Origin: a virus
Strand: one strand, 5' to 3'
DNA: 64,000 nucleotides
Virus record (IMG/VR): IMGVR_UViG_3300021963_000077
Location: 1-64,000 of that record
A program made the translations under genes and the position numbers. The notes beneath the pieces are model-generated. The model saw only the letters and a program-made list of their open reading frames with translations. It was not told the DNA's origin and searched no databases. Shown here piece by piece: positions 28,254 to 55,970 of this stretch (the stretch's first letter is position 1; the number at the start of each line of letters is the position of its first letter).

Positions 28254-31200
28254 GGTTCCTCACCTATGCGCATTGTGGTATTTAGGTTACTAGTGCTTAG
28301 GTACTGTTTTGTGCGATCATCAAAGATTTCCACAACCCAATTACCATTAGGACTCATGGCCTTGCGTGCTAGTAGCACTGGTTCACCGTCTGAATCATTA
28401 GCCCACAGGCTGAACTCATTAAAGTTACTCATTTCCATAGCCATAATATTTCGGAGATTTGCTTGAATTATGTCTACGTACTCTTCTGGCACTGATCTTC
28501 CAGTTTCTTGCTTTCTATTTCTTATGCGCGATAGCAAAACATCTCTATCACCAACGAAATAGTGCGCTTCAATTTTGTATCCAGCACGAGTCAGTCTGTC
28601 TAAAGTTCCTGGATCGTTGTTGAATTGACCACTTGAGTCAAAGACAACATCAAGCTCTTTTCTGATGGCTTCCTGGATGGTTGCGAATGCAATGTTTTGA
28701 GATTCCGTATGTGTTGCACCAGCAGCCGATGAGTTGCCTCTTGATATATAGCCGTTGTACTCAGGTATTAATTGTTTCATTTCGTCAATGTCAACATGAG
28801 CTGCTTCACGACGAGAAGGAATTCTCCCATCAAAACCATTAAGGCGTTGAGTTGTTTTTCCAGAACCTGGGGCGCCCCCAATGATAATCGCACGCTTTCT
28901 TAGCGTTGTCGGGTCGGTGCTATCTCTTTTCTTTGTTACGTAGTCAGTTATGCCACGCATAATTTCACGCCATACATTGTCGTAGCGCGAATCAGTAACT
29001 TTTCTTCCTCCAGCGCCATACTTTCCCATAGTGTGCTGACCACTCTGGTAGTCGCGTTCACTGAAGGTACTAGGCATCCTCTTGTCAATGTCAAGCATTT
29101 CATTGAGTTTGTAAGACGGCTGTGCCTGCATGGATCCAGATGGCCGACGTCCAGATGGTGTAACTATTGAACCCTTTGGAACAGAGCCACCAATTTTGTC
29201 TAGATAAGCCAGCGCGCTAATTTCTACAGGTGTAATTGACGATGTGCGCGTTCTTGCAGTTGACGCCATTGGCTTACTTGAGTAGTTACGCGTAGACATT
29301 GCACCAGATATAAATCTGCGATACATGGGGTTATCAAGAAGTGCTTGATCTTGTGCTTTTCTAGCCTGAATAGCTTTTCTGTATTCAGTTGGCGACAGTG
29401 CCCTAACCGCACCATCTGCTCGTTCCTCTGCGCGCTTGCGCATTTCCTCAAGCTTTGTCTTTTCATCTCTTAGTCTGTCAACTTTGGTATCTAGGCCATG
29501 GAATAAACCTCTTGTGCCACTACCAACTTCAGCATACTCATCAAGTTGCTGAATTAACTTCATAAACGTCGGGTTAGTATCTACTGCCCACTGATACATC
29601 CTAAAAGCAAAATCTTCCGACGACTCCCCATCTCCGCGGACTGGTTTTGTCTCGTAGAGCCAAGATCCAAGAACCATTGCCCGTGTGTATGCACGACGCG
29701 AAGCTTGATATTCAGCCGATGCTTGATTGCGCGCATTTTTTACTCTGTCAAGCTTCCTATTTAGGCGACGGATCTTTTCATCAATTGCCTTTATTGAGCG
29801 AGGAACAGTTGCTCCTAAAGCATCAATCTCGGCATCAATCTCAGCATTTGCCTTGTTCACCTCATATGCATCACGGCGCTTGATCCATGAACGCTCAGCT
29901 GCATTTATTGCACGTTCAACGTCATCCTTGTCCATTCCGGACTCTTGTCCAGCTTTAAGCAAGGCGCTGCGAAGGATGCTACGTGGTGTTGAATACTCAT
30001 CAGCTAGCTCTTGCAACCAAACATCTTCAGATGTGAATTGATTCCACAGATCTGCTCGCTTCTGTTGCGATGCCTTTGACCTTCCACTCCACGCATTTCT
30101 AAGTTGCTTGCGTTTTTCTTGGCTTGTAGAAATCTCGTCCGAGATGTCATCCCATGTTCGGTCATCATCGTCAAGGTCGCTATCAATGGCCGCCAACATT
30201 TTGTCCCAGTCAATTGACTCTGGATCCTTTAATTCTGGTGGCTCCGGTGCATATCTGTTTGGCTGATCCTCTATCCACTCACGCTCAACCCATGTTGGAT
30301 TTGCAAATGGTGAGTCTTTCCAAATATCGTATGAATTAATTGCGTCATCAAAGAATGATTCATCGTCTTTAGCGGCTTGCTCGACTGATTCAATTAGCTC
30401 TTCATAAGCACGCTCGTACTCATCCTCAACCAGACGCTCCAAGGCATCGTCCCATGGATCTTGATCGGAGCTTGGTGGAGGCGTTACCGACATTGCTCCA
30501 GCTATGCGACGCTTAGACATTGACCCACTGACATTTTTGTTTTTTCGTGGTTCGCGTAGGTCTTCATCTTCATACCGAGCTGCAACCGCATCACCAAACG
30601 ATTGAGCAACAAGGGAGCGCAATGAATTCTTATCGTCTTCACTGAGGTCATATATTGCTGCTAGCTTTGAAAAGCTATCAAAGTCTTCAGGAAGATTAAG
30701 TTGACCGCTCTCTGGATCAAGGTATCCAGAACGTAACTCGTTTATTATTGAATAAAGCTTTGATTGTTGTGCTTTTTGTTGCTCTGGACTTAACGCATCT
30801 TCACCATCAGGATTATCAATCCTTCTAAGACTTGCTCGCATTTCGTCAGGCGTAGCGCTCAATATTTCTTTGGGTGACCTAAAACCAAATACTGCCTCCA
30901 ACCTAGAAGCAGGAAGACTTTCAAGTTTTTCAGACGATACAAAACCAATGGCTTCAAATTGGCTCTCTATGTTTTTGAGTTTTCTATTGTCGCCTGGTTT
31001 ACCGCTAAAAATTGATGGCTCATCAATATATGGAGAATGCATCCATACTTCACCCTTTTGCGAATGGGTGATTGTAAAGCCTTGATCAATTGCTTCATTA
31101 ACCCATTTCTTAAGCTTTGGATCTTGAATACGTTTCATTGCTTGGGCGGTTGTTTCTGGCTGTGGAGTCGTTCGTGTTCCACGACGCAGCTGTGCAATAT

Positions 31201-31855
31201 CTTCAACCCTCAGAGCACCAGATATACGGCGAGGCCGTACCGCTGATGGTATTACTCTTGGCGTTGATGGGCGCTCAAATGCAGTTCCCTCTTGCACTAG
31301 ACCATCTGAATCACCATCAACAGCATTTGGATCATATGGTTCAGTATTTCTAGATATACGGCGAAGCTTTCTTCCCAGTGCTTTAGTATCCTGCGTTTGA
31401 CCAGACTTTGAAGATTTGCTCTTCCATGGGTGACCTTCAGGCAGCAGGTCCGAATCTCCAACATAACGAAGATTTGTTGGTTTACCCTTATCAAGCATTT
31501 TGAGGAATGCGTTTACGCGTCCGTATGCCCACTGGTTGCGAGACATGCCTGGTCTGTGTGAGCTTGAATAAGCACCAGCGCCGCGCCTAAATACCGCCTT
31601 TAGCGTACCAACGCTTGCCATGGCGTGACTTGGCCGGCCAAGTTCAGACATCTTCTTGTTGTGGATACGTACTTTTACCTGAAGTGCTCTAACTATGTCT
31701 TGTGACAGATCTATATCTTTTGCGCTTGACGCAGAAGACGCTGAACCTCTCTGGTTTTTAGAGGATCCAACGATTCGTTCGGATGGTTTTGATGGGGTTG
31801 CAGCTAGGCGGTCTTTTCTAGCCTTGCGCATTTTTTTGTTATTTTCACTCATCAT
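28250..31855 (-). CDS. 1201-aa polyvalent protein: head-associated N-domain + DGDxDG tag + HicA-like + C-terminal zeta-toxin-like P-loop kinase
   Basis: LKAVFRRGAGAY...WAYGRVNAFL; YDPNAVDGDSDGLVQEGTAFERP; GGAPGSGKTT, HVDIDEMK, THTES, VVFDSSG. Confidence 0.8.
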   Translation of the reverse strand: MMSENNKKMRKARKDRLAATPSKPSERIVGSSKNQRGSASSASSAKDIDLSQDIVRALQVKVRIHNKKMSELGRPSHAMASVGTLKAVFRRGAGAYSSSHRPGMSRNQWAYGRVNAFLKMLDKGKPTNLRYVGDSDLLPEGHPWKSKSSKSGQTQDTKALGRKLRRISRNTEPYDPNAVDGDSDGLVQEGTAFERPSTPRVIPSAVRPRRISGALRVEDIAQLRRGTRTTPQPETTAQAMKRIQDPKLKKWVNEAIDQGFTITHSQKGEVWMHSPYIDEPSIFSGKPGDNRKLKNIESQFEAIGFVSSEKLESLPASRLEAVFGFRSPKEILSATPDEMRASLRRIDNPDGEDALSPEQQKAQQSKLYSIINELRSGYLDPESGQLNLPEDFDSFSKLAAIYDLSEDDKNSLRSLVAQSFGDAVAARYEDEDLREPRKNKNVSGSMSKRRIAGAMSVTPPPSSDQDPWDDALERLVEDEYERAYEELIESVEQAAKDDESFFDDAINSYDIWKDSPFANPTWVEREWIEDQPNRYAPEPPELKDPESIDWDKMLAAIDSDLDDDDRTWDDISDEISTSQEKRKQLRNAWSGRSKASQQKRADLWNQFTSEDVWLQELADEYSTPRSILRSALLKAGQESGMDKDDVERAINAAERSWIKRRDAYEVNKANAEIDAEIDALGATVPRSIKAIDEKIRRLNRKLDRVKNARNQASAEYQASRRAYTRAMVLGSWLYETKPVRGDGESSEDFAFRMYQWAVDTNPTFMKLIQQLDEYAEVGSGTRGLFHGLDTKVDRLRDEKTKLEEMRKRAEERADGAVRALSPTEYRKAIQARKAQDQALLDNPMYRRFISGAMSTRNYSSKPMASTARTRTSSITPVEISALAYLDKIGGSVPKGSIVTPSGRRPSGSMQAQPSYKLNEMLDIDKRMPSTFSERDYQSGQHTMGKYGAGGRKVTDSRYDNVWREIMRGITDYVTKKRDSTDPTTLRKRAIIIGGAPGSGKTTQRLNGFDGRIPSRREAAHVDIDEMKQLIPEYNGYISRGNSSAAGATHTESQNIAFATIQEAIRKELDVVFDSSGQFNNDPGTLDRLTRAGYKIEAHYFVGDRDVLLSRIRNRKQETGRSVPEEYVDIIQANLRNIMAMEMSNFNEFSLWANDSDGEPVLLARKAMSPNGNWVVEIFDDRTKQYLSTSNLNTTMRIGEEP

Positions 31856-32870
31856 TCAGAACCATTCCAATACTGGTAGAAACAAAGCGCCTACCATCGA
31901 GCATCCTTGACTGAACCTCAATAAATTGAATTACAGAATTGTTTCTTTGAGACTTTTCTAATATAGCAATACCAGCAGACTTACCACGCATCATTCTTGT
32001 GACTCGCCTAGCAATTCTCTCTTCCGTAGCTCTTTCTCTTCGGTTGCGATCCCTCTGTGCTTGAGGTCCAATTCCTCGCCTACGACGATAATCGGATTCA
32101 TTTGTGCACGGCATCCAAGCAACGCCACCACTAGTAGTTGAATATCTACGAATACCAATGCACCCGAGCTCGCGCGACCTCTTCAAGGCCGATGTCTGAT
32201 TATCAAACACATCAGGATCCCCAGGACGGATTATCATAGGAACACCAAGAGAGTCCTTAACGTTGACAACCGTGCGAGTCGGCCATGCTGATTTCTGCGA
32301 ACCCCTAGAGCGCCTATTTGGAAGATTGTCCCTCATTGCATCAAGATGTCGGATGCCTTCAACATCTTGTTCCTTTAGCACTCTGAGTACCGTTCTTAAC
32401 CTCTTTATGCCTTCTTCGGTGAAGTTCATTGAGAGAGTTTCATCATCCTTTTTTACTGCGCCAGCTTGCTTGATTGCCGCAATTGCGCGCATCAGTGAGC
32501 GCCGGCGTTCTCGAGACTGGGTTTTGGAGTCTCCATACTCAAATTTCGGATCATTTAGAGCATCTTGCAGATACACCATCATGTCCGTGGAAAACTCATT
32601 CCATTCTCGCATTGATATTCCAGATACATTAAATGTCTCTGGTTTGGCCGGCGAACGCGAATATAAGTCCTCATCAGGCTCACTATCTAGGTCCAAGTCT
32701 CCTAGAGCATCACTTAGTTGAGGCTTTGGCGGGTTAAATCTACCCCAAGACATTGCTCCAGAAACTCTTGGTTTAGCAGGTCTTTGAAAAGGGGTTGCAT
32801 CCTGAACTAGTCCGTCATTGTCACCATCAATGGCGTTTGGATCATATCTTTCAAAAATGCGACGTTTCAT
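31845..32870 (-). CDS. DGDxDG-tag protein with LGC...WMPC domain
   Basis: RYDPNAIDGDNDGLVQDATPFQRP...PRVSGAMS; ELGCIGIRRY...WMPC. Confidence 0.75.
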   Translation of the reverse strand: MKRRIFERYDPNAIDGDNDGLVQDATPFQRPAKPRVSGAMSWGRFNPPKPQLSDALGDLDLDSEPDEDLYSRSPAKPETFNVSGISMREWNEFSTDMMVYLQDALNDPKFEYGDSKTQSRERRRSLMRAIAAIKQAGAVKKDDETLSMNFTEEGIKRLRTVLRVLKEQDVEGIRHLDAMRDNLPNRRSRGSQKSAWPTRTVVNVKDSLGVPMIIRPGDPDVFDNQTSALKRSRELGCIGIRRYSTTSGGVAWMPCTNESDYRRRRGIGPQAQRDRNRRERATEERIARRVTRMMRGKSAGIAILEKSQRNNSVIQFIEVQSRMLDGRRFVSTSIGMVLNDE

Positions 32871-33154: not shown

Positions 33155-35904
33155 TTGTACCACCTAAACATTTCTGGAGTTGTTTTTATATATTGAAGTA
33201 ATTCCGAGTACTCGAACATCATTGATAGATTTGCGTCAGTTAGGCCATTCATTCCGGACTGAGCTCCATAGATGAAGTTAATGTGATGGCGGGCTGCCTC
33301 AAACCCAAGAAGCTCAGCGGCAGCTACTCCGTTTCGCCACTCACCATCTCGGTCAAAACTTAAACCAAAAATGAAATGATTGAGGTCGTGTATATGCTCA
33401 AATGGAGCTGCACCACCAGACGAAAGCAACTTAAACTCTGGATCGCGCATCCAGTCAAGAGCGATATCTAGATATGTACCACTGTCGGATATGCCGTATC
33501 GTTCCGATGTTTCTGGCAATCCAAGCTTTTCACGAATAGCCTTAATAATTGGGTTGTAATACTGAGCCAACTCATTCAGTTTATCTGAGTATGCAATTAT
33601 TGAATCAGTTTGTTCTTTTGCGAATCGCCCTGCCTCGGTATCCGCAAACTCAATGTCTAAATTATTGAGCAATCCACGAGGCGTTGTGTCGTAGGGCGGA
33701 TTTTCCTTTACGTACCGATCATGCTCTTCCTTGTCATAGACAGGCGTTATTGGGGTTAGATATTTCATAAGAAAGGTCAAACCTATTCCTAGCCGGTCTG
33801 ACTTTGGTGCATTGTTTATTGTGTAGACATCTTCGCCATCTTTTGTTCTTGCTTTTAGAGTCTTACCATCCTTACTTCTTTCGGGTCTCCAAAATTCAGC
33901 AAGTTCTGTATCTTTTATTACTTGGTTGAGTATGGCTTCGCTAATTTCACGAGCCTCGTCATCATCGGGCTGGAAAACTTCAGTCTTTATCCTGTCACGG
34001 TTTGGGCCAAATTTATCGGCTAGGCCAGGTATTTCTGGAAGGCTCATAATTACGGACCCAGAAGGGCCTTCAGCTAGCTCAACCTCTGAAATGCGTTGCT
34101 CAGGTTTTTCAAATACTGGAAAAGCTTTTTCAAAAGCATCTTTTTGCTCTTCGTTCAGTTTTGAGAATGCAGACATTGATGCGGTTACCGCTAGTGGTCG
34201 TTCAAATGCTGTTGAGTCTTGAACTAATCCATCACCATCGCCATCTTCAGCATCTTGATCAAAGCGATCCGTTAGTGATTTTTTCTGAAGAGGAAGTTTT
34301 CTATCATCTGGACATGGTCCGGGATTGTCCCAATAATCCAAATGACCGACATAATGCTTTGTATGAGCCCTGTAGCTTTCAATCATGAACCTTACAGAAT
34401 TGAACTCTTTACAAAGACCAAGAACCTGGAGAGATCTTGCCATTTTCCATATACGCGTTCCATAAACCGAGCTTGGTGACTGACCGTTTGCAAAGTCTGG
34501 ATTATCAATCCATTCTTCCTTGTCTAGATCCCACGCCAAGGCAGATGTATAAAGTCTGGCAGCTTCAGCTACAGAGTCAGTAAACTCTTTGTTTTTGCGG
34601 AGTTTTTTAATGTTGGTTTTGGCTAGGTTGTAGCGTTCTCCATACGCTATTGATCCGCGGTCAATGGGAAATGTCCACCAGTCATAATGCTCTGAGTGAA
34701 ATTTTTTCCAGTTTGAATTATTAGCATATTCTTTGAATTTAGCAACTTGTGCTTTTTGATCTTTTATTACTGATTCATCTCCACCATATGGAGCATCATT
34801 CCAATAGCGTTTTTTCTTCTTTTTTGCTCTGAACTTAGAGAGCCAGTTTGACCCAGTTTTTTTCCGTTTTGCTGGTGAGGAAGGGCCTTGTGCGCCAAAA
34901 TCAAGCGTCATCTGCACGGGTTTTGATGGACGAGAGTTTGGAGCATCGGCGGAGCCAAGGGAGTCAATAAATGACTCATCTAGCGCTGTCTCCTCGAGCG
35001 CATCGTAGTCTTCCTGTAGTTCTTTTAACTCTTCTATGGATAGACCCGCAAAATGCGGATACATCCTATTGAGCGTATCTTCACTAATAGATGGGTCAAA
35101 ACGGTCTGAGACATAGTCTTCAAAGTCAATCAAGTCATCTGTAGAAAAAGCATCAATCAGCCTGAATGGCTGAGCAAAATCATCAAGCTCATCTGTTCCA
35201 AAAGAATCATCCGGTAGCAAGTTTCGGTCAAGAATGTAACCGCGCACAAGATCTGCATGCTGTGAGTCTGGAAGACTTGCTAGATTTGGATAGTAATCAG
35301 CTAGAGATTCTCTATTTTCCCCAGATAATATTGCCTCAACATACTCAGGCACTACATCAAAATCGTCTGAATTTAATTTTGATAGTATCTTTTTATATGC
35401 TTTTAAGGCTGACTCATCCTCGTCATTTATTCTTGCCATTGCCCCGACGATGCGCCTATTTGATGAAGGTCTTTTACCCATACGAGGTTTATCTGGTCTT
35501 TGCCAAGATGTTCCATCTTGAACAAAGCCATCTTCATCACCGTCAATAGCATTTGGGTCAAACCGCTGATTCAGGTTCCGTATGCGTGGAAGAGCCTTTC
35601 CAGAAACCTCAGCACTGACTAGTCCTCCACCTGGGAGGGTATCAATACCTAAAGGGCCACGCTCCGAAAGATTCTCCCAGTTGGAACCACGTTTTTTGCG
35701 TTTGGTTTTGCGATATACCTGATCAGGTATATCGTCGGTAGCCTTGTATTCGCGCTTTGGGTTTGACGTTTCAGCTTCGTTTGAGATTCGCTGAAGAGTT
35801 TCGTGCGAATCGCACGGCATCCAGTTGCCGTCACCGTCTTGGTGAGCACCAGAGCAGCCTAGATACCCTGCAACCTTAAGAGCTTCCTCTTTACTGCTTG
35901 CCAT
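33151..35904 (-). CDS. 917-aa polyvalent protein: LGC/WMPC domain, two DGDxDG tags, OGFr-like domain, zincin-like C-terminus
   Basis: LGCSGAH...WMPC; HYDWWTFP...RIWKMARSLQVLG; HIHDLNH...SFDRDGE. Confidence 0.75.
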   Translation of the reverse strand: MASSKEEALKVAGYLGCSGAHQDGDGNWMPCDSHETLQRISNEAETSNPKREYKATDDIPDQVYRKTKRKKRGSNWENLSERGPLGIDTLPGGGLVSAEVSGKALPRIRNLNQRFDPNAIDGDEDGFVQDGTSWQRPDKPRMGKRPSSNRRIVGAMARINDEDESALKAYKKILSKLNSDDFDVVPEYVEAILSGENRESLADYYPNLASLPDSQHADLVRGYILDRNLLPDDSFGTDELDDFAQPFRLIDAFSTDDLIDFEDYVSDRFDPSISEDTLNRMYPHFAGLSIEELKELQEDYDALEETALDESFIDSLGSADAPNSRPSKPVQMTLDFGAQGPSSPAKRKKTGSNWLSKFRAKKKKKRYWNDAPYGGDESVIKDQKAQVAKFKEYANNSNWKKFHSEHYDWWTFPIDRGSIAYGERYNLAKTNIKKLRKNKEFTDSVAEAARLYTSALAWDLDKEEWIDNPDFANGQSPSSVYGTRIWKMARSLQVLGLCKEFNSVRFMIESYRAHTKHYVGHLDYWDNPGPCPDDRKLPLQKKSLTDRFDQDAEDGDGDGLVQDSTAFERPLAVTASMSAFSKLNEEQKDAFEKAFPVFEKPEQRISEVELAEGPSGSVIMSLPEIPGLADKFGPNRDRIKTEVFQPDDDEAREISEAILNQVIKDTELAEFWRPERSKDGKTLKARTKDGEDVYTINNAPKSDRLGIGLTFLMKYLTPITPVYDKEEHDRYVKENPPYDTTPRGLLNNLDIEFADTEAGRFAKEQTDSIIAYSDKLNELAQYYNPIIKAIREKLGLPETSERYGISDSGTYLDIALDWMRDPEFKLLSSGGAAPFEHIHDLNHFIFGLSFDRDGEWRNGVAAAELLGFEAARHHINFIYGAQSGMNGLTDANLSMMFEYSELLQYIKTTPEMFRWYK

Positions 35905-35906
35905 GG

Positions 35907-36296: not shown

Positions 36297-36298
36297 GA

Positions 36299-39200
36299 CT
36301 ATCTCCAAACTCTATCGCCGTTTTCGTCAGCAATTCTAGCCAAGAAATTCGTTATATCTTGATAACTCCGAACACCTGGAATGGTTGCTGCCCCAGTACG
36401 ATTTAGAATAACAACAATATCTCCGTTGCTACCCATATTTACCGATGTAATTGCTTCGGTAAATTGGTCATCAGTAGTTTTATAAGAGTCATCATAAGTT
36501 GTCATTGCGTCAAAACCGCCAAATACTGAAATTGTTGATGCATTTGCGTGCATTATGACCTGTTGGGCCTTGCGGATCTCGTCATTATATTCTGTTTCAT
36601 CGTCGTTACGCGGGTTTGGTATTCTTGACATTTCTAACTGTAGCCAGTAATCAACAAACGCGTCAACATAAAGATTTAATCTATTTCTTACTTCATTACT
36701 AAAGTTTGTATCAAGTTGGTTAGATTTCTTTAAAGAAGCTATTTTGTCTGTAACCGCTTCAAAATCATTAATGTCAAGAGTTTGAGATGCTTGGCTGCCA
36801 TACCTTCCGCTTCTTCCAACAGCTTGTTCAAGCTCGCTAACGATTGTTTGTATCGTATTTGAGGCTGCTGTCATTTGGCGATAGTCAGCAAAGCGTGTGT
36901 TTCTTGGAAGAAGAATAACCATGCCAGCTGCGCCGTACCCACTGAGTCCAGGACCCGTAGCGAAATAATCTCCCCAGCCATAAGCTGTTCCGCCCTGACC
37001 AGCAGCAAAGCGTTCACCAGTTTGCCACTGCTGAACCATGTCGTCACCAGTTACTCCGGAAGATGGGCTCATGTAGCGGCTCAGGATTACCCACTTATGT
37101 TTCCCATTATCGTCTTTTTCAGCAAGCATGTTCGCTGCTTCTTCTTCGGTTACCTGAACAGGAAGGTCGCTGTAGCCGTTGACTGTAAACAAGGCAGCCA
37201 TCTGAGCTGCTCCGCCAGAAGAAGCTTCCTTAGTTGATCCCGGCAATTTTTTGGATTCATATGCATCCTTCATCGCAACGAGCAACTTTTTCTCGTCGTC
37301 GGTGATGGCTGGAGTTGGATTTAATGGCGAGACGTCGCTAAATAGTTTTCCAGATTTGTGTTGATCAACTATTTTTGTTATTTCGTCTGGTGTTCTGGTT
37401 ACATCAGGTACAACACCGAGTTCTGTCGGGTCAAGCCCTCCACCGACACGCGATTTGCCAGCTTTTCTGTCAATAGCTTTCTTTATTTGAGTGTTTGACC
37501 AATCAACATAGCTCTTGTATGACTTGCGTGCTGACTTTTGAACTTCTTCAAGAATTTTATCTTCCGAGAAAACTTCAGAAGCAATTTTTTCAAGTGATTC
37601 AACAAATTCACCATGACGTACTAACTCGCGTTTTTCAGACTCTTTGAACCCAGCCCCGGGTGTTTGGAATCTCTTTATTAAGTTATTCCGCGTTGAGAGT
37701 GAAGATGCATGAAGTGATTTGAGTTCTTCAAAAGCATCAACATAATCAGTACCGTCGCCAGAAAGGACTGCTTTGTTTATCTTGTTTATCAGTGATCTAA
37801 GGGTCATTTCACCGTAGTAATTTGATGCATGCTGACCTCGCGGCCCGCGCCAATCGTACAGATTACGCGCGCGTGTGCGAACTATTTGCTTCCACCCAGA
37901 TGGCAAAATAATGTTATTGTCCTTAAATAGTTTATCTAAGTACTCATCAATTGTTTTTGGTGGGTTTGCATCATCCCAAGCGCTGTCTACTGCAGTAGAA
38001 CTTAGATTGGCAACTGCAGAAATAGCGTTTGAATATCCAACGTCTGAGATATCAAAGCTAGGCGCATAAGCCAAAACAGTTGGAAGGCTGACACCGCGAC
38101 CACCTGAACCAAAAACAAAAGATGTAGCGGCGCCTTTTGATAGCGGTTCATCTTTTGGAAATAGGTATTCAAGCAAATCACCAATTGTGGTTATACCTTT
38201 CATGTCATTTAACCAGCCTGGCCGACTGTAGGCATTTTTGGCTAATTGACTGTCAACTAAAAAGTCTACGGACTCAGACCAGGTCTTAAATGCTGGATTA
38301 GAGCTGGTGCCGACACCTGGGACAAGTGACTGGTTTTTACCATCAACCCTGACAGATGGGTACTTGACCTGACCTGGCCCACGGCTAGAAACTATTTGCG
38401 GAAGTGGTTGAGCTTTTGCAGAAAGCGCAACATCCACCGAGTCAACAACAATTTGATCTGAAACATCAACTGCGAATCCAGTATCTGGGTCAACCCATAG
38501 AACCGTACCCTTCGGATCACCCTTAGGAATCAAGCCAGTTACATCAGCGCCACGCCAGGTAGAAGGTGATCCACTTGCTGGCTTGCGTTGTGCAGGAGGT
38601 GCAGGAGGTGCAGGAGGTTGCGGCGGAGCAACGGGGGTTTTACCCGTAGCCGAAGGCTTTAAAGCCTGTTGTGTAGTTGTTGGTGAGGTCGTTTTCTTAT
38701 ATGTAACCCAGTTAACAGTCGGGTCATCTTGGCCTGCATCAGCAACTATACGATGAGCAACGAGCTCGTCATTTTCAACGATTCGGTAAGTCCTACCCAG
38801 CTTACGATCATCTTTTGGACCGTACTCATATTCCCACATTTGAATGTATGTGTCACCAGAATCATTCTTCTTATCAAATATACCAAGAACTGTTACGTCG
38901 TCATCTCCAGCACCTTTTGGAGCAAGTGTTGGAATATTATTTTGTGCCTCATCTGAATCAGTTAGATCGTTCCATCCACCAGTCGCCCGCAGGATTGCTT
39001 TAAACCTATCTTGTAGGTCAGACCATTCAGCAGCGTCAAATAATTCCATTATCACGCTGTCTACGGAATAGCCAAGGCTTTCTGCTTCCGCTGTATCAAC
39101 AAACCTAAGCGGGTACGCCCTATTGGCGGGATCTTTCACGGCTTCAGAAACGTCTTGTGTTTCTGGCGTAGCTACGGCGTTGTCTTTTTTCCTATTTGAA

Positions 39201-44268: not shown

Positions 44269-44269
44269 T

Positions 44270-44962: not shown

Positions 44963-45363
44963 TGCTCATCCAGTTCTTTCAATAATTTTTCAAGCTGTTT
45001 GCGGGAACCATCTGGGAGGTTTTTGGCAATTTGGCGCAATTTAGCAAACTGTTCTGGCGATGCTTTTATCGAGTTAAGCTCCGTATTTCTAAGCTCAGAA
45101 CTTGGACTAACTGCGAATACATCTTTTATTCCACTCACTACATTAGCATCTTCAATAATCCCAGAAATGTCAGAAGCAGACATTGGCCTAGATCTCGCGC
45201 GATCTGAAATTTGTGGCTTGAAGCGATCCATTGAGTCATTGAATCCAGACTTATTAGGCTCGTATCCACCGCTCTTTACGCTCTTTGGCGGCTTAACACT
45301 TACCAAGGAGTCTTTTGAACTAGACAGTTCCTCGTAAAGTTTTTCATGTGCTCTGCTACTCAT
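44959..45363 (-). CDS. hypothetical protein
   Basis: Start MSSRAH, ATGA-coupled to 1445-aa ORF. Confidence 0.6.
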   Translation of the reverse strand: MSSRAHEKLYEELSSSKDSLVSVKPPKSVKSGGYEPNKSGFNDSMDRFKPQISDRARSRPMSASDISGIIEDANVVSGIKDVFAVSPSSELRNTELNSIKASPEQFAKLRQIAKNLPDGSRKQLEKLLKELDEQ

Positions 45364-48300
45364 TTGATACCCAACACTTCTATTGCGTCTGGATGAATCG
45401 TATTGACCCAACGACGACCACGATACGCCCAGTCAAGCCACTTTACAATGTTTTGCTTGACAAGTTCTGGGATCATGTAATCCTTTATGCCGTGGCCCGA
45501 CATTAGGAGAGCATGTAGTTCGGCAAATATTTCCTGTGGTTCAATATCGCCTGGCTCAACCATCAGACCGCCATAATACGGTCGTTTTGATCCGTAAGAA
45601 CTAAATAATTTAGCTACATCTAATAAAGCCCGGCGATCAATTGGATCAGTAATTCCGTCCCATGTCCTTTGGCTTATTTCCCTGAAAGCTGCGCCTTGAT
45701 AGCCGTCAACTCCTAATTGAGTTGAAGGATCATAGAACATTGCAATGTCAAGATCGTAGCTGTAAGCCTCGTATGAATTTGATGGTGCTAGTTGCACATT
45801 TGTAACGGGATCATCAGGGAAGAATTCTTTATATATGTCTGATTCACGGATGTCTTCCATGAAAATTGGATCAGTAAGTATTGCCATTACTTCGTCTACA
45901 ACTCGCTCGTCGGCAATATTCTTCTTGCCATCTGGACCCATGTCTTTTCCGTAAAGTGAATGATCAGCTTCAAATGGAACAACAGTATAAATAATTTCTG
46001 AGTTCATAATAAAATCACGCAGATCAATCATATTCCGACCCGTGATTCGTTCTGCTTTTAGATTTGCTAGAGCATTGATGTACTCTGTTCTTTTTTGCTG
46101 AAGTGCTTTAGCGATTGATACATCTTTTGTCTGGCCTAAAGAAACTTCAAGTTTTGCAATCTCTAGTGGCAAATCTAGTATTGCGTCTTCAATCTTGGGA
46201 AGCAATGCTTCATAACGATCCGCTTGAATTTTTATAGTCGGCAGTATTTCTCTAGTAATTGTTCCAGTAAATATTTGTTTAGCATAACGCTTAGCCTTTG
46301 ATCTAACGGTATCAACAATTGCTTTGTCGCGTTCTAGTGCAGTTGTTCCAGACATTGACTCGTCATATGACAGAGATTCGGCCAAAGCATGGGCCATTTC
46401 ATGGTGTGCAATGTTCATGACTGCACCCGTTTGCGCAAGAGAGTGAATTTGACGGCGCTCAGCCTTGCTCATTCCACTATTTCCGGAAGAGTAAGCTGTT
46501 TTCATTATCTGTGTACCAATATTGTCGCTTGTTGAGTCTTTGTTGGATATGTAAACAGGCACAGTTTGTCCTGTTCGCGGGTCTACGTACATACGCATTG
46601 AATCACCGGAATGCTGACGAACAAGAGCTCCATCTGTGGCCAATTCCATAAGAAGCCACTTTGCTCCAGTTGAAGTGGAGCGATCAACGCCACCACTCCT
46701 ATCAAACTTGGAAACATTGGATTCAACAACGCCAGTCACTCCACCAAGAGAATCGCTTTGCTCGCGTATTGCGTAGCCCCAATCCTTTAATTCTGGTACT
46801 TGCATTGCTACTGAAATAACGCCAGCAAAAGCTGATATTTCTTCATTTGTTAAATCTCGATCATTACTACCAAAACCGGTGAATTTGATTTCTCTAAATA
46901 TTTGCGCCAATGCGCTCTTTGCGTCGCTCACTTTTCGCAGTGGGCCATATTTTGATTCAACGCTTAATATTGTGTCATCAACATATTTTCTGACATTATC
47001 AGCAGACATGCTTGGAGTTTGCTTGATTCTGTCATTATCTGCAATACTCCAATCTTTTATTTTGCCAGTCATTTCATCAATCATGTCGCGCAGTAATTGC
47101 TCAATATCGTTGAATGATGATCCTTCTGATTTTTTAGGTACAGGCCTTGACGTAGAACCTTGCTCAACGTCTCTCAACTTCTCGCTTACCGATGCAACAC
47201 CTACTGGGCGCTCAAACTGCGTTGAATCTTGCACCAAGCCGTCGCCATCACCATCTTCAGCTCTTGGATCAAACCTGGCCGTTAAAAGCCTGCCGATGCG
47301 ACGCATCTTTCGCGGCATCGCTTTTGCCTCTATCTCAACAAAATGTTCTTTTGTCTGTCCGACATTAAGTCCCATGAGCCTAAATACTTTGTATCTGCCG
47401 TCGCGTTTTACATCGTTGATTAAGTTCAATTGACCGCTACTCATAAGCCTGTCAAGAATGATCATATTATGAAGATCTGCAGCCCATACACCAAACTGCT
47501 TGCCGTCAGTTTTTTCAAACCCAGCCATGCTGTCTAGGATTTCGTCAATACCAATATTGTCGCCGGCAGACAAACCCATTCGCTGTCTAAAGATCTGCTT
47601 AAGTTGACCAAGGTATGTATCAGCTGCGTCAACTAAAATATCTTTCGCACTATCCTTGAGGCCGATGGTGTCTAGTTCTTGTCCTTTTTCTTTAGGGCTT
47701 TGCGGTCTGCTTGCGTAGAACTCCCCAGTGCGACCATCTTGCCTTACGTTATTTACAGTTGAAATATCTGATGTGTAGTTATTGATCTTTGGTGACCTGT
47801 ATCTACTGCCCTGATTTCTGAGTCGTGATTGATCTCTACGCTCAAGTGAATCAGACAAGAGCGCTCCAGCGCGTCTCTTGGCTCTGTTTACACGTCCACC
47901 TTGCTGTGGTGAAAAACGTGGACCACCAAGACTGCGTGGAACTCCATCAGCATCAACTGGAACATTGAAACGATCCGCAAATTCTTGTTGAATTATTTTC
48001 TCTAGGGTATTTTTATCTACTGCACCGATAAGGCTGGGATCTGCGTCTGCCAGCAATGAGTAGATCATTTTATAAGCTGCATAAAACTCAGCATTTGCTT
48101 CTATGCCAAAATTGCCACTTTTGTCAGTTGCGTGTGAATATTCCGACCCGACGATGTTGGCAAGGTTTTTAAGATTATCCTGTATCCCTTGGCTTGGATT
48201 TACGAGATCGTATAGCTCACTATATATTGCTTCAACGATTTGCTCACGTTTAGTTTCATCAGTTTCTAGTGGAAGTGCATCCACTAAAGGCTTGATATTG

Positions 48301-49697
48301 GGATGTGAACTTATATCTAGAACTTTACGATTTACTAGTTCGCCAGTTGCTGTATCAAGAACTTGCATATCCTTGGTTTCAGTGATTCCTGCCTGGTTTA
48401 GCTTTGCTCTAAAGTCAGCAAAATGACCGAACTCATGAGTTCCTACTTCATGTCCAAATGTCCGCATATCTGGAGGTGTTGCAAAAAGGTGCCTAGGATT
48501 GTCACCCGATACATATTGATATGTACCTCGTAGTTGCTCTGGTGCCATCAGGAGCCCAAACATTCCATCGCCATCAATTGTTAATTGAGCTAAGTCGCCA
48601 CCAATCTCCTGTGCGTCAACTAGCTTCATTGAGCCAAGCATTTGAGACCACTCGCGATTATCGTAGGCTTCTAGTAGAAATGCCTCAATAAAACCCCACC
48701 TAAACTTCACATAGTCAGCAACTTCTTCGGCGTCAGAAAATTTTTCCAAAGGAATATTCAGAAAGTCATCTATTTCTTTTTCTGGCACATTAGGAAATGA
48801 CTCCCTCATTGCTTTTTTCATCTGACGAGCAGAGCGAAGGCTGCGACGGCCAGAGATTAAGCTGCGTCTTCCAAGACCTTGGTAAGCAGCTTTGCGTCTA
48901 AGGGCAGCGCTTTCCTTGAGAAGCCGTTTGCGTAGGCTCAGCTCTTCGTCACCAACGACCATATCGCCGTTTGGCGTAGTGGCACGTAGACCTACTGCAA
49001 CAGATCCATTTATTGATTGTTTTGCGACCCGAGCTGCTCCACGCGCAGCTCCACCAGCAACAGTTCTAGCTGAAGGAATCATGCAATTTGATAACTGTAG
49101 GTCAGTGAACTGACCGCCGCCTGGGGTTTCCTCTGGACACCTCAAACGCCCTTGATCGTCAAATGGGATGTTCCTTGATCTAGCAATTCGCAGCAACAGG
49201 TTGGGGAGTTTTGAATCATCCCCGAGTGTCATTCCCAAAACGCCTTTAGCGTTAAAAGTCTGACCGTTAACGACAAACTTATCTGGGTCTTTTATTAGGC
49301 CATAACCAGTTTCGTCATTATTTGGGCCGAGGCGACATACGACCATTTTGTGCCCAGGCGGAACTAGTGGTACTGGATCACCTTTTTTGAATGTTGATAC
49401 AAAGTGATCGTAGGGGTGTAGTTTTTTTTCTGCCTTAGCTTTTGGCGTGGCATCGGTAATCGTCTTCTCTGGCTGCTTTTCTGCTTTGTGGCGCATGCCA
49501 AAGGATGATCCTTTAGCTGCAAGTATGCGCGATTCGGCCCACCGAGCTGTGTCTACTGCGGTACTTAATTCGCTCGCTTCAAAACTCATTTTTATATGCG
49601 AGCCAACAGACTTGGTGCTAAGGCGCCAAGCGTCAGTAGACGCCGTGTTGCCATCATTGCTATCCGCCGGCGAGCCCTCATGAATACCATCAGGCAC
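45360..49697 (-). CDS. 1445-aa polyvalent protein with two zincin metallopeptidase domains and one DGDxDG tag
   Basis: LRCPEETPGGGQFT; THEFGH...EANAE; RFDPRAEDGDGDGLVQDSTQFERP; HHEMAH...EIFAE; GGAGG RBS + GTG. Confidence 0.8.
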   Translation of the reverse strand: MPDGIHEGSPADSNDGNTASTDAWRLSTKSVGSHIKMSFEASELSTAVDTARWAESRILAAKGSSFGMRHKAEKQPEKTITDATPKAKAEKKLHPYDHFVSTFKKGDPVPLVPPGHKMVVCRLGPNNDETGYGLIKDPDKFVVNGQTFNAKGVLGMTLGDDSKLPNLLLRIARSRNIPFDDQGRLRCPEETPGGGQFTDLQLSNCMIPSARTVAGGAARGAARVAKQSINGSVAVGLRATTPNGDMVVGDEELSLRKRLLKESAALRRKAAYQGLGRRSLISGRRSLRSARQMKKAMRESFPNVPEKEIDDFLNIPLEKFSDAEEVADYVKFRWGFIEAFLLEAYDNREWSQMLGSMKLVDAQEIGGDLAQLTIDGDGMFGLLMAPEQLRGTYQYVSGDNPRHLFATPPDMRTFGHEVGTHEFGHFADFRAKLNQAGITETKDMQVLDTATGELVNRKVLDISSHPNIKPLVDALPLETDETKREQIVEAIYSELYDLVNPSQGIQDNLKNLANIVGSEYSHATDKSGNFGIEANAEFYAAYKMIYSLLADADPSLIGAVDKNTLEKIIQQEFADRFNVPVDADGVPRSLGGPRFSPQQGGRVNRAKRRAGALLSDSLERRDQSRLRNQGSRYRSPKINNYTSDISTVNNVRQDGRTGEFYASRPQSPKEKGQELDTIGLKDSAKDILVDAADTYLGQLKQIFRQRMGLSAGDNIGIDEILDSMAGFEKTDGKQFGVWAADLHNMIILDRLMSSGQLNLINDVKRDGRYKVFRLMGLNVGQTKEHFVEIEAKAMPRKMRRIGRLLTARFDPRAEDGDGDGLVQDSTQFERPVGVASVSEKLRDVEQGSTSRPVPKKSEGSSFNDIEQLLRDMIDEMTGKIKDWSIADNDRIKQTPSMSADNVRKYVDDTILSVESKYGPLRKVSDAKSALAQIFREIKFTGFGSNDRDLTNEEISAFAGVISVAMQVPELKDWGYAIREQSDSLGGVTGVVESNVSKFDRSGGVDRSTSTGAKWLLMELATDGALVRQHSGDSMRMYVDPRTGQTVPVYISNKDSTSDNIGTQIMKTAYSSGNSGMSKAERRQIHSLAQTGAVMNIAHHEMAHALAESLSYDESMSGTTALERDKAIVDTVRSKAKRYAKQIFTGTITREILPTIKIQADRYEALLPKIEDAILDLPLEIAKLEVSLGQTKDVSIAKALQQKRTEYINALANLKAERITGRNMIDLRDFIMNSEIIYTVVPFEADHSLYGKDMGPDGKKNIADERVVDEVMAILTDPIFMEDIRESDIYKEFFPDDPVTNVQLAPSNSYEAYSYDLDIAMFYDPSTQLGVDGYQGAAFREISQRTWDGITDPIDRRALLDVAKLFSSYGSKRPYYGGLMVEPGDIEPQEIFAELHALLMSGHGIKDYMIPELVKQNIVKWLDWAYRGRRWVNTIHPDAIEVLGIK

Positions 49698-49714
49698 GTC
49701 GCCTCCAGTTTTAA

Positions 49715-51348: not shown

Positions 51349-51542
51349 TACGACTCCTTGTATTGCATTGACTTTGTCAGGCAACCTTTGGGATTAGTGC
51401 ATCCTCCACATGGTTGCATTCTTTTTTCGCCTGTAACCATGCAGTGATACTTATGTTGAAGATTGTTTGAACCTATTGGTTTAGAATAACCCATTTGAGC
51501 CCCACTCTGTGGGTACTTTGGTGATTTCTTATTCTTTGCCAT
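51348..51542 (-). CDS. small Cys-rich protein
   Basis: YHCMVTG...PCGGCTNPKGC. Confidence 0.6.
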   Translation of the reverse strand: MAKNKKSPKYPQSGAQMGYSKPIGSNNLQHKYHCMVTGEKRMQPCGGCTNPKGCLTKSMQYKES

Positions 51543-51586
51543 GTGGATCAAAATCCTAATCTGTATAACGACTGGATCATTTTATA

Positions 51587-52660
51587 CTAACCCGAATACC
51601 GTAGCTTTGGTGGCTTCTTGATCCGAGGTCTAGCTTTTTCAGCATTCCTCAATGCTTCGAGCATTTTGGCTCTGTTGATCTTGACATCCACGATTCGCAT
51701 ACCAAATTTTTCAGCTGCTTCCGCCTCGGAGTGATTGCTGAGGTAGAGCAAGAAGCTTTTCGCATTGGGTGTCAATACTTGTGGATGATTATTAATTAAA
51801 TTAATGATTTCTGTATTAACGCCTTCTAGTTTCTGATCTGCTTCAGTATCAATGATGCGATTGTCTGGAGTGTTGAGATTAAATTCTTCGTTATATCGTT
51901 TAATAAATTTACCGACTAACGCTTGGCTAACTTTTAAAGCCTCAGCAATTTTTTCGTATGATATTCCGTACTGTGAAAAAGTGTACATTAATTGACCTTT
52001 TTCCAGAGACGATAAATCACTTAACCCAATGTCAAAATCCCTTACAGATCTGTCCACGGTTGATTTGTCTACACCGAATGCCTTGGAAACTTCATCTTTG
52101 CTAAATCCATATTTTCTAGCAACTGAAATAATTTTACGCTTTTGCTTAAAAACGCTTCTAGCAGAAATGTTATTTTTTTTCAAAACGACAGAAACATAGT
52201 CGCTTGTCACTCCAACATCCTGCGCAATTTGATTTGGCCCAATGCCGAGTCTTGCCTGTCTTACGATTTCTTTGATGCGCCCGCTGCGATCCACATTTGA
52301 AGTGCTTACATTTCCTAGCTTTTGTTTATTACGTGAGGCGCGCCTAACGGTCGCAATGCTTACTCCATATTTCTTAGCTAGGGCTTTTGCTATCTCGGCT
52401 CGCTCTTTTGGAGTTTTGCCTTTGGCTATTTCTTCGGCCATTTCGTTGCTTCTACGCTCAAATTCAGCTACAGAAGATGCTTGGTTTACAGTTCTTCCCA
52501 CTCCTGTAGTCATGCTTCCGGAGACCGCGCGACGAACTGAGGGTCGTTCAAACTGTGTTGCGTCTTGAATTAGGCCGTCGCCGTCACCATCAAATGCGTT
52601 TGAATCAAACCTATCGGTAAGGCGCCCTAGGCGGCGTGCGTCGCCTGTGCGCCTCAGGCT
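51587..52660 (-). CDS. multi-HTH protein with N-terminal DGDxDG tag, probably expressed as -1 frameshift extension of 52654-53013
   Basis: Frame open from 52666 with tag RFDSNAFDGDGDGLIQDATQFERP upstream of first ATG (52513); about five HTH-like repeats. Confidence 0.7.
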   Translation of the reverse strand, partial: SLRRTGDARRLGRLTDRFDSNAFDGDGDGLIQDATQFERPSVRRAVSGSMTTGVGRTVNQASSVAEFERRSNEMAEEIAKGKTPKERAEIAKALAKKYGVSIATVRRASRNKQKLGNVSTSNVDRSGRIKEIVRQARLGIGPNQIAQDVGVTSDYVSVVLKKNNISARSVFKQKRKIISVARKYGFSKDEVSKAFGVDKSTVDRSVRDFDIGLSDLSSLEKGQLMYTFSQYGISYEKIAEALKVSQALVGKFIKRYNEEFNLNTPDNRIIDTEADQKLEGVNTEIINLINNHPQVLTPNAKSFLLYLSNHSEAEAAEKFGMRIVDVKINRAKMLEALRNAEKARPRIKKPPKLRYSG

Positions 52661-52666
52661 TTTAAA
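52620..52666 (-). other. programmed -1 ribosomal frameshift signal
   Basis: T TTA AAA heptamer (52666-52660), 5-nt spacer, stem AGGCGC/GCGCCT enclosing AGGCG/CGCCT. Confidence 0.75.
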
Positions 52667-53013
52667 TCAAGACCGCTAGCAACAGACTTGACTACAGCAC
52701 TAATTGCATCTATTGCGTCTTCGTCCAGGTAATCCATATCCTCGATAACTAAAGACTTTGTTTCCTGCTGTATGGAAACACCGTAGTAATCAAGCACGGG
52801 CTCAAGAAAAGATTTAGCCCCCATCAGGGCCTCGTCGTCGCCAGTAATCACAAGGTTTACCTTGTTCTTGCCGCCATCAGATGAATCTATGACTTCCGCC
52901 AAAAGCTCTAAGGCTTGTCTTAATTTGCCCATATTCCTGTTGCTAATAACGCGACCACTCTTTACGTCAATGTCGTTTCCATATGGTGTTGAAAGAAAAA
53001 TTTTAGTTTCCAT
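52654..53013 (-). CDS. 119-aa head-locus protein (0-frame product)
   Basis: TAATG-coupled to protease stop; VKSGRVISNRNMGKLRQA motif typical of head scaffold segments. Confidence 0.7.
   Translation of the reverse strand: METKIFLSTPYGNDIDVKSGRVISNRNMGKLRQALELLAEVIDSSDGGKNKVNLVITGDDEALMGAKSFLEPVLDYYGVSIQQETKSLVIEDMDYLDEDAIDAISAVVKSVASGLDLKA

Positions 53014-55970: not shown

What the first reader, a model, noticed from the sequence alone, without database searches (positions are those of the whole stretch)
29127..54093. R-x-[IV]-S-G-[AS]-M linker marks domain boundaries in the tagged proteins
Seen: about 11-12 copies, only noticed in tagged proteins: RRISGALR, KNVSGSMS, RRIAGAMS, RFISGAMS, RRPSGSMQ (1201 aa); PRVSGAMS (341 aa); RRIVGAMA, AVTASMS (917 aa); RAVSGSMT (HTH protein); SRISGSMA, PRVSGSIS, RSVSGSMT (protease). 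A new domain usually follows, often starting M-S/A/T like a natural N-terminus. Inference: a protease cleavage site that dices polyproteins, and/or the junction where whole genes were captured.
Basis: partly seen in the sequence, partly recalled or inferred. Interest (0 to 1): 0.75.

Follow-up and report, generated by a model that had tools for sequence, protein, structure and literature searches.

The report
Repeated Gly-x-Met linker in phage cargo
An uncultured large phage joins the domains of its capsid-loaded proteins with one short repeated peptide that is probably a cutting site for a phage protease, although no cut has been measured.

Summary
All 12 listed copies are present. The core SG[AS]M occurs 7 times in the 8,727-aa head module against 0.22 expected. 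It occurs nowhere else in the 89.5-kb record and only in tag-bearing proteins. Codons vary synonymously and no ribosome-binding site precedes the Met, so this is a protein motif.

The motif is shared across a family: 229 relatives in IMG/VR. Flavours differ by clade: RxLSG[AS]M, I[ST]G[RK]MG, GP[VI]GxM[SA], P[TIV][AGS][SA]M[SAG]. The common core is Gly-x-Met-small. Two relatives fuse the prohead protease to polyproteins of 3,190 and 3,984 aa that are punctuated by it. Sites sit in hydrophobic-poor linkers, are conserved in position between 32%-identical polyproteins, and precede duplicated domains.

My best reading, at about 0.55, is a proteolytic processing site in tag-addressed head cargo, most likely cut by the S78 prohead protease beside the Met. 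Three results weigh against it or fail to support it:
- The capsid protein lacks the motif.
- No free-standing homolog starts at the Met; the one candidate was a truncated gene call.
- No cleavage data exist.

Rivals are a zincin as the cutter, or an encapsulin-like docking peptide. This scan noted the same motif earlier on a relative (e1-5738621).

The parts
53013..55970 (-). 985-aa prohead protease: S78 domain (about 27-170), DUF6321, tag, Pro-rich linker, then HTH and repeat passengers separated by three motif copies
   Evidence: Pfam PF04586 E 3.1e-9, PF19846 E 1.2e-27, Sigma70_r4. PHROG 80 E 3e-26. 41-42% identity to Gordonia phage capsid maturation proteases. His65 and Ser129 invariant in 30 sequences.
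54069..54092 (-). motif copy SRISGSMA (protease, before the sigma-r4 HTH)
   Evidence: Orthologous site in 7 of 8 distinct relatives. Lies in a pLDDT<50 coil.
53754..53777 (-). degenerate copy PRVSGSIS (Met replaced by Ile), before the first FDTRGSR repeat
53427..53450 (-). motif copy RSVSGSMT, before the second FDTRGSR repeat
52508..52531 (-). motif copy RAVSGSMT; its Met is the first ATG of the 308-aa multi-HTH ORF (51587-52513)
52565..52591 (-). tag core DGDGDGLIQ lying upstream of the first start codon of the HTH ORF, reachable from the 128-aa ORF (52654-53040) by a -1 shift at T_TTA_AAA
   Evidence: Heptamer and tag kept in L009 and L010.
45360..49697 (-). 1445-aa protein with two HExxH motifs and an internal tag (47229-47255) followed by VGVASVS (no Met)
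   Evidence: No Pfam hit.
35434..35457 (-). copy RRIVGAMA (917-aa protein, after tag 1 at 35518-35544)
34171..34194 (-). copy LAVTASMS (917-aa protein, directly after tag 2 at 34219-34245)
32748..32771 (-). copy PRVSGAMS (341-aa protein, after the N-terminal tag at 32802-32828)
31208..31231 (-). degenerate copy RRISGALR (1201-aa protein, after the tag at 31292-31318)
30488..30538 (-). tandem pair KNVSGSMS-K-RRIAGAMS (1201-aa protein)
   Evidence: First copy kept in ortholog P0002.
29294..29317 (-). copy RFISGAMS (1201-aa protein)
   Evidence: Kept in P0002 as RFVRGSMS and in L091 as RFISGAMS.
29126..29149 (-). copy RRPSGSMQ, last before the Zeta-toxin-like kinase domain (residues 981-1138)
   Evidence: Kept in P0002 and L091 as RRVSGSM. 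No Zeta-region hit starts before query position 908.
26627..28021 (-). major capsid protein (HK97 fold family) closing the module; carries no motif copy
   Evidence: Pfam PF05065 E 3.5e-47. Sequence and junction alignment.

Best explanation
The peptide is a short linear motif with the family-wide core hydrophobic-(Ser/Thr)-Gly-x-Met-small. In this phage it reads [RK]-x-[IVL]-S-G-[AS]-M-[STA]. I read it as a proteolytic processing site in head-packaged cargo proteins.

Shown:
- The genes lie between the prohead protease and the major capsid gene.
- Each cargo protein carries a roughly 45-residue tag (basic helix + DPNAxDGDGDGxVQ..FERP) followed by the motif.
- Further copies separate downstream domains.

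Inferred mechanism: the tag brings the protein into the assembling prohead. The S78 (HK97-type) prohead protease carries the tag and three copies itself, and in two relatives it heads polyproteins of 3,190 and 3,984 aa. It then cuts at each copy and frees the cargo domains (HTH proteins, a Zeta-toxin-like kinase, others of unknown fold) for delivery with the DNA.

The cut is most likely just after the invariant Met: P3 Gly, P2 variable, P1 Met, P1' small. This has the same shape as the A-x-E|S rule of the giant-phage protease gp245. The enzyme and the exact bond are inferences.
For: (1) Enrichment and confinement: 7 against 0.22 expected, and only in tagged proteins.

(2) Protein-level selection. 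Ser is TCT/TCC/AGT, Gly is GGT/GGA/GGG and Arg is CGN/AGR across copies.

(3) Family-wide but clade-flavoured. In the 80 loci kept out of 229 relatives, the general pattern occurs 189 times against 25.5 expected in the protease and downstream ORFs (148,992 aa). In the other ORFs of the same loci it occurs 16 times against 20.2 (116,175 aa). There are 115 distinct site contexts.

(4) Met is specific. With Gly fixed, Met scores 164 observed against 9.3 expected, Leu 24 against 19.8 and Val 29 against 18.1. Ile scores 75 against 15.0, of which 46 are the conserved LTGTIS of the protease domain. P2 is variable (R 60, A 34, S 26, K 21) and P3 is Gly in 164 cases. This is the P3-x-P1 shape reported for SPN3US gp245: A-X-E, Val preferred at P4, Ser at P1' (PMC10052503, passage read).

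(5) Linker position. The hydrophobic fraction within 15 residues either side is 0.186 against 0.281 background (0 of 10,000 random sets as low; 11 of the 12 copies, LAVTASMS not matched by the pattern). Two of the three protease copies lie in pLDDT<50 coil next to a confident HTH domain.

(6) Positional conservation. Five sites align between the L047 and L062 polyproteins. Motif columns are 18 of 30 identical against 65 of 200 in the flanks, and Met is 5 of 5. Ortholog P0002 (52% identical) keeps 3 of the 4 single sites compared.

(7) Six loci with at least 2,500 aa downstream and no true tag (L064, L067, L072, L078, L086, L087) have 0-1 copies. Thirty-two of the 33 tagged loci have 3-11; L010, a close relative of the window, has 2 (tags classed by eye).

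(8) Precedent: T4 and phiKZ/SPN3US head cargo is targeted and then cut by the prohead protease. Polyvalent phage proteins have been proposed to be released by peptidases (PMC5512222, passages read).
Against: - No proteomic or biochemical evidence of any cut exists. The phage is uncultured.
- The major capsid protein has no copy at the delta/mature junction, which reads PVHKS|SVGQAF in the window. Only one of three aligned relatives has Met there (RRM|SVGDAF). If the S78 enzyme removes the delta domain, it must also cut other sequences. T4-type systems use one rule for shell and cargo.
- The general pattern was written after I had seen some of the loci, and the loci are related, so the 189 against 25.5 is not a set of independent events.
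- The AF2 model is poor (mean pLDDT 51.9), and the third protease copy is modelled as a short strand.
- Tag-bearing Zeta proteins from more distant sources (P0004, P0005, P0007) have the tag but no Gly-x-Met after it.
- The tandem pair nine residues apart and a 50-residue inter-site segment in the 1201-aa protein would give very small products.
Confidence: 0.55

Rival explanations
1. It is a cleavage site, but it is read by one of the two HExxH (zincin-like) domains of the 1445-aa cargo protein. The cut would happen inside the head or after ejection into the host, not by the prohead protease.
For: - Two HExxH motifs (HEFGH, HEMAH) are conserved in relatives as HEFGHL and HE[SA]IHAL.
- Iyer et al. 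2017 propose that embedded metallopeptidases release domains of polyvalent proteins (PMC5512222, passages read).
- The capsid protein lacks the motif, which fits a second protease with its own code.
- A follow-up note on another phage family reached that view (e1-5645143, not tested here).
Against: - No Pfam or PHROG hit supports a peptidase fold.
- The tag-less, motif-less clade also keeps an HExxH protein (L086 and L064), so presence of the zincin does not track the motif.
- The protease-headed polyproteins place all copies in cis with the S78 domain.
- The N-terminal region of the protein has relatives in all 4 records tested, so absence could not be used as a test.
Confidence: 0.15
2. It is not cut. 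It is a docking peptide that binds the inner face of the HK97-fold shell, like the targeting peptides of encapsulin cargo, and repeated copies add avidity.
For: - It resembles encapsulin family-1 targeting peptides (TVGSLIQ, LTVGSLRR, GSLxIGSLK; PMC10960027, passages read). Relatives here read P-V-G-S-M-S and the window reads V-S-G-S-M-S.
- The shell protein belongs to the HK97 capsid family and is 76-79% identical across clades, which would fit a conserved core motif.
- Copies sit in flexible linkers.
- Tandem copies exist.
Against: - All 12 copies are internal and none is at a C-terminus.
- Met is almost never replaced by Leu or Val, whereas encapsulin peptides use Leu or Ile.
- The residue after Met is small rather than basic.
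- A separate tag already offers a targeting function.
- A protease is encoded in the module and itself carries the copies.
Confidence: 0.15
3. The Met is an in-frame internal translation start, as in lambda C/Nu3 or Mu I/Z (recalled), or the fossil start codon of captured genes. The upstream residues would then be translated leader sequence.
For: - The residues after Met (S, A, T, G) are those common at natural N-termini of this phage's genes.
- In the HTH gene the motif Met is the first ATG.
- In L009 and L010 it is replaced by GTG, another start codon.
- Leu and Ile variants use CTG and ATT.
Against: - No Shine-Dalgarno sequence lies 6-12 nt upstream of any of the 9 Met codons inspected, while true starts such as the protease, capsid and 133-aa genes have GGAG-type sites.
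- The residues before Met are conserved as amino acids with varying codons.
- The tag upstream of the HTH Met is conserved as protein and reached by a conserved frameshift site.
- The only 'free-standing' homolog was a truncated call.
Confidence: 0.05
4. It is a passive linker relic spread by duplication of one tag-linker cassette, without a function of its own.
For: Each tag is followed by a copy, so cassette duplication explains 7 of the 12.
Against: - Five copies lie far from any tag.
- Surrounding linker sequence has diverged while the core is kept: 60% against 32.5% identity.
- The core persists across clades whose flanks differ.
Confidence: 0.05

Closest known systems
Prohead-protease processing of head-internal and ejection proteins in T4 (gp21; CTS-tagged IPI-III and Alt) and in phiKZ/SPN3US (gp175/gp245, A/S/G-x-E)
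   Same: - The protease is encoded in the head module.
- Cargo carries a targeting element plus a short P3-x-P1 motif with a small P1' residue.
- Many different proteins are loaded into the head.
- The protease processes itself.
   Different: - The enzyme here is an S78 HK97-type protease, not the T4 gp21 type.
- P1 would be Met, not Glu.
- The tag is about 45 residues and often internal.
- Copies divide multi-domain chains into several pieces rather than removing one propeptide.
- The capsid protein does not carry the motif.
Polyvalent proteins of phages and conjugative elements (Iyer et al. 2017, PMC5512222)
   Same: - Giant multi-domain proteins in virion-gene context.
- They combine kinase (Zeta-like), HExxH, DNA-binding and unknown domains.
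- Release by peptidases has been proposed.
- A portal-MuF fusion lies next door.
   Different: No conserved inter-domain linker motif or addressing tag turned up in the passages I retrieved: 'linker' occurs 0 times in the main text, and I did not read the paper through. Here the junctions carry one recurring peptide.
Encapsulin family-1 cargo targeting peptides
   Same: - A short V/I-G-S-L-like peptide on flexible linkers.
- It addresses cargo to the interior of an HK97-fold shell.
   Different: - The copies here are internal, not terminal.
- Met replaces Leu.
- The next residue is small, not basic.
- The system includes a maturation protease.
Polyproteins of RNA viruses with an embedded protease
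   Same: A protease-headed chain (in relatives L047 and L062) with one short junction motif repeated at domain boundaries.
   Different: This is a dsDNA tailed phage. The products would be capsid cargo, not replication proteins, and the protease fold is unrelated.

Membership tests
Prohead-protease cleavage sites of head cargo (T4 / phiKZ / SPN3US type) | A prohead protease is encoded in the head module together with the substrates | tested here: met
   S78 protease at 53013-55970. Substrates lie between it and the capsid gene.
Prohead-protease cleavage sites of head cargo (T4 / phiKZ / SPN3US type) | A short motif with fixed P3 and P1, variable P2 and small P1', recurring in head proteins | tested here: met
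   Gly-x-Met-[SAGT]. P2 is R/A/S/K; Met is 164 against 9.3 expected. The residues differ from the x-Glu rules.
Prohead-protease cleavage sites of head cargo (T4 / phiKZ / SPN3US type) | The same motif marks the maturation site of the major capsid protein | tested here: not met
   No copy in the 435-aa capsid protein. The junction reads PVHKS/SVGQAF.
Prohead-protease cleavage sites of head cargo (T4 / phiKZ / SPN3US type) | Cleavage shown by mass spectrometry or gel shift | not testable with these tools
   Uncultured phage known from an IMG/VR record only.
Polyvalent proteins (Iyer et al. 2017) | Two or more unrelated effector-type domains in one polypeptide, in a virion or late-gene context | tested here: met
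   The 1201-aa protein has DUF5824 plus Zeta_toxin (E 2.4e-22). The protease has S78, DUF6321 and HTHs. They are flanked by portal-MuF and capsid genes.
Polyvalent proteins (Iyer et al. 2017) | An embedded metallopeptidase domain | tested here: inconclusive
   Two HExxH motifs in the 1445-aa protein are conserved in relatives, but there is no family hit.
Encapsulin family-1 targeting peptides | A short hydrophobic-Gly-Ser-Leu-type peptide at a cargo terminus | tested here: not met
   The sequence is similar, but all 12 copies are internal.
Encapsulin family-1 targeting peptides | Binding to the P-domain pocket of an HK97-fold shell protein | not testable with these tools
   Only single-chain folding was available. 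The shell belongs to the HK97 capsid family.
Nested in-frame internal starts (lambda C/Nu3, Mu I/Z type; recalled) | A ribosome-binding site plus a start codon inside the longer ORF | tested here: not met
   ATG is present, but there is no SD at -6 to -12 in 9 of 9 Met sites inspected.

The most novel reading that the evidence does not exclude
The Gly-x-Met peptide would be the phage counterpart of encapsulin cargo-loading peptides. In this reading it is a docking peptide for the inner face of an HK97-fold capsid, possibly serving as a release site as well. That would be the first natural peptide-addressed cargo loading seen in a tailed-phage capsid, and a direct link between phage head cargo and the origin of encapsulin targeting. 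The evidence does not exclude it. The core resembles TVGSL-type peptides, the shell protein is 76-79% identical across clades that all keep the core, and copies are repeated on flexible linkers.
Probability: 0.12. Interest if true: 0.85.

Novelty: new variant of a known kind. Interest (0 to 1): 0.62.

Why it matters
If the motif is cut, this family of roughly 140-175-kb uncultured phages uses a true polyprotein strategy for capsid cargo. The strategy has three parts: an address tag, a defined Gly-x-Met junction code that drifts between clades, and an HK97-type protease. I know of no sequence rule for that protease type (recalled), and one literature search for such a rule was uninformative.

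It would give a readable grammar for predicting which phage proteins are packaged and injected, and where the mature products begin. It would also give a compact tag-plus-site module for loading foreign proteins into HK97-type shells. The cargo itself (a Zeta-toxin-like kinase, multi-HTH proteins, HExxH proteins) points to early host takeover or counter-defence functions.

The same kind of punctuated cargo chain, with other codes, has been noted by this scan in other phage families. The phenomenon may therefore be general and under-described. My searches for papers on it returned nothing specific.

Tried and rejected
1. Free-standing homolog test. On that contig the frame is open upstream to the contig end and continues the polyprotein. 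I rejected it as evidence.

2. Capsid junction test. No motif in the window's capsid protein. My script caught the L090 capsid in no filter, so only 3 of the 4 capsids were aligned.

3. Isolate relatives. The protease and capsid match Gordonia and Brevibacterium phages at 41-57% identity, with protease and capsid genes about 1 kb apart and no cargo block between them. The 1445-aa protein has no match in 50,697 phage records. No proteomics can therefore be borrowed.

4. AF2 of the protease with a 30-sequence alignment. It gave a poor model (pLDDT 51.9), usable only as a coarse domain map.

5. Orthologous G-R-M-G site in the protease middle region. Met is present in 14 of the 18 proteases flagged tag+ by the regex and in 2 of 10 tag-less ones. 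Two further proteases with Met (L043, L049) were not flagged by my tag regex, so their class is uncertain. The window itself has Val. This is weak and confounded by relatedness, so I did not use it as an argument.

6. Zincin presence or absence as a discriminator. All 4 records tested have a relative of the protein's N-terminal part, so this was uninformative.

7. A loose tag regex gave false positives inside the protease domain. I classed tags by eye from the printed contexts.

8. Phosphorylation-site reading (R-R-x-S). Rejected because other clades lack both Arg and Ser.

9. Literature.. One search was uninformative and one search found nothing. Supplements of papers were not consulted.

10. 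Not done: whole-genome motif counts in the complete relatives G001, G004 and G007, and any multimer modelling.
Full report
WHAT THE WINDOW IS. The window is the first 64 kb of an 89.5-kb IMG/VR virus record, estimated 60% complete. On the minus strand lies a head module, in this order:
- a portal fused to a MuF domain (56064-58304);
- a 985-aa protein whose first ~175 residues are an S78 HK97-type prohead protease (53013-55970);
- a 128-aa ORF;
- a multi-HTH protein;
- an acidic 482-aa protein;
- a 1445-aa protein with two HExxH motifs;
- ORFs of 150, 230, 709, 1984 and 133 aa;
- proteins of 917, 341 and 1201 aa, the last ending in a Zeta-toxin-like kinase domain;
- the major capsid protein (26627-28021).

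The closest isolates are Gordonia and Brevibacterium phages (protease 41-42%, capsid 47-57% identity). In them the protease and capsid genes lie about 1 kb apart. The ~25 kb of giant genes is therefore an insertion into the head module.

THE OBSERVATION. All 12 quoted peptides are present. The literal regular expression of the title fits 3 of them. The robust core SG[AS]M occurs 7 times, each with Arg or Lys 2-4 residues before the Ser. Five further copies are degenerate.

SG[AS]M is expected 0.22 times in the module and 0.53 times in the whole record. None of 2,000 shuffles reached 7. All copies lie in tag-bearing proteins (5,248 aa). None lies in the 4,997 aa of untagged module proteins or in the rest of the record. 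Every one of the seven tags is followed by a copy or a degenerate copy. Five more copies lie deeper in the 1201-aa protein and the protease tail.

PROTEIN OR NUCLEIC ACID SIGNAL. Codons differ between copies: Ser is TCT/TCC/AGT, Gly is GGT/GGA/GGG and Arg is CGN/AGR. No Shine-Dalgarno sequence lies at the usual distance before any of the 9 Met codons inspected, whereas several true gene starts have one. Selection therefore acts on the peptide.

THE FAMILY. The protease has 229 relatives in IMG/VR, and 80 loci were kept. Complete relatives measure 138-174 kb. The motif recurs with clade flavours:
- R-x-L-S-G-[AS]-M-[SG] in L013, L036 and L080;
- I-[ST]-G-[RK]-M-[GSA] in L014, L020, L051 and others;
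- [VL]-[VT]-G-[RA]-M in L029;
- G-P-[VI]-G-x-M-[SA] in L047, L032 and L068;
- [GE]-P-[TIV]-[AGS]-[SA]-M-[SAG] in L062.

In L047 and L062 the protease heads single ORFs of 3,190 and 3,984 aa carrying 8 and 11 copies.

A general pattern, written after seeing part of these data, occurs 189 times against 25.5 expected in the protease and downstream ORFs. In the other ORFs of the same loci it occurs 16 times against 20.2. The sites have 115 distinct contexts.

With Gly fixed, Met is 17.7-fold enriched while Leu and Val are not. The Ile excess is mostly the LTGTIS strand of the protease domain. The residue before Met varies and the residue after it is small.

Six loci without a true tag have 0-1 copies, and their cargo genes are separate and smaller. 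This scan had already noted the P-x-G-x-M punctuation of the 3,190-aa protein on its own record (e1-5738621). I reached the same observation independently.

BOUNDARIES. The flanks of the copies are poor in hydrophobic residues: 0.186 against 0.281, with 0 of 10,000 random sets as low (11 of the 12 copies, because the script's pattern did not match LAVTASMS).

In the protease tail the copies precede the sigma-r4 HTH pair and each of two FDTRGSR...DAxYD repeats.

The copy before the HTH is positionally conserved in 7 of 8 distinct relatives. In L034 two duplicated modules each begin just after a copy, and an RNase_T exonuclease domain follows the last copy.

Between the L047 and L062 polyproteins, five sites align. 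Motif columns are 60% identical against 32.5% in the flanks, and one HSP ends two residues after the Met in both proteins.

In the HMMER search with the 1201-aa protein, no Zeta-region hit starts before the last motif Met. N-terminal-domain hits end at about residue 140-218, and one (P0013) runs 30 residues past the first, degenerate copy. Only the ortholog P0002 spans the middle, and it keeps three of the four single sites compared.

The AF2 model of the protease is poor (mean pLDDT 51.9). It does place two of the three copies in low-confidence coil beside a confident HTH domain.

WHAT FAILED.
- The 287-aa protein that starts at the motif Met is a truncated call of a polyprotein, so I found no free-standing gene that starts at the linker Met.
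- Gene fission and fusion among relatives occurs upstream of the tag. The movable unit is tag + motif + cargo.
- The capsid protein has no copy at its delta/mature junction.

MECHANISM. I commit to proteolytic processing of tag-addressed head cargo, at about 0.55. The S78 protease is the most likely enzyme, and the bond after Met is the most likely cut.

The shape Val/Ile - small - x - P1 | Ser parallels the measured rule of SPN3US gp245: A-X-E, Val at P4, Ser at P1' (PMC10052503). The tag-plus-site logic parallels the T4 capsid-targeting sequence (papers listed; the T4 details are recalled).

Shown: the motif, its confinement, its conservation and its position. Inferred: packaging, cutting, the enzyme and the bond.

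Rivals:
- a zincin as the cutter (0.15);
- an encapsulin-like docking peptide, since TVGSL-type peptides resemble PVGSM (0.15);
- internal starts or captured N-termini (0.05);
- a passive relic (0.05).

NOVELTY. This is a new variant of a known kind. Head cargo processed by a prohead protease, and polyvalent phage proteins, are both known. An HK97-type system with a Gly-x-Met junction code, an internal address tag and protease-headed chains of up to 3,984 aa turned up in none of my searches. Those searches cover only the open-access library.

Noticed in passing
window 52508-53040 (-): The 128-aa ORF ends GAT TTA AAA GCC TGA. The heptamer T_TTA_AAA allows a -1 shift into a frame that reads FKSLRR...RFDSNAFDGDGDGLIQ...RAVSGSM and runs into the 308-aa HTH ORF. 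That frame has no ATG, GTG or TTG before the motif Met. The heptamer and the in-frame tag are kept in relatives L009 and L010, where the Met is GTG-Val.
   Followed up: partly
L047 (9962-19531) and L062 (9992-21943): In two relatives the prohead protease is the N-terminus of single ORFs of 3,190 and 3,984 aa. These contain HTH modules, an exonuclease-like module and many unknown modules. Their tag is a variant (ARNADNDxYVLEG / ARDADQDRLVLEG).
   Followed up: partly
L064, L067, L086 (protease ORFs): In the tag-less clade, the homolog of the window's separate 230-aa protein (GPRRGNLERLLRYWRPIMKKPGGFRRCRV...) is fused inside the protease polypeptide.
   Followed up: no
window 53013-55970, residues 165-173 of the protease: L-T-G-T-I-S-I-K at the end of the S78 domain resembles the linker motif with Ile in place of Met, and is nearly invariant in 30 sequences. 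It may be a structural strand or the protease's own release site.
   Followed up: no
P0004, P0005, P0007: More distant proteins combine DUF3721, a DUF5824-like domain, the DGD tag and a Zeta-like kinase, but have no Gly-x-Met after the tag. The tag is therefore more widespread than the linker motif.
   Followed up: no
window 45360-49697, 42253-44382, 36299-42253 (-): Three large neighbouring proteins share an R-C-P-x-G...QFTD / GGRFTD segment. It is conserved in all 4 relatives' records searched with the 1445-aa protein.
   Followed up: no
window 56064-58304 (-): Portal protein with a C-terminal Mu F-like domain (PF04860 + PF04233) joined by a Gln/Pro/Met-rich linker. The linker contains a conserved P-x-E-G-M-T-A segment.
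   Followed up: no
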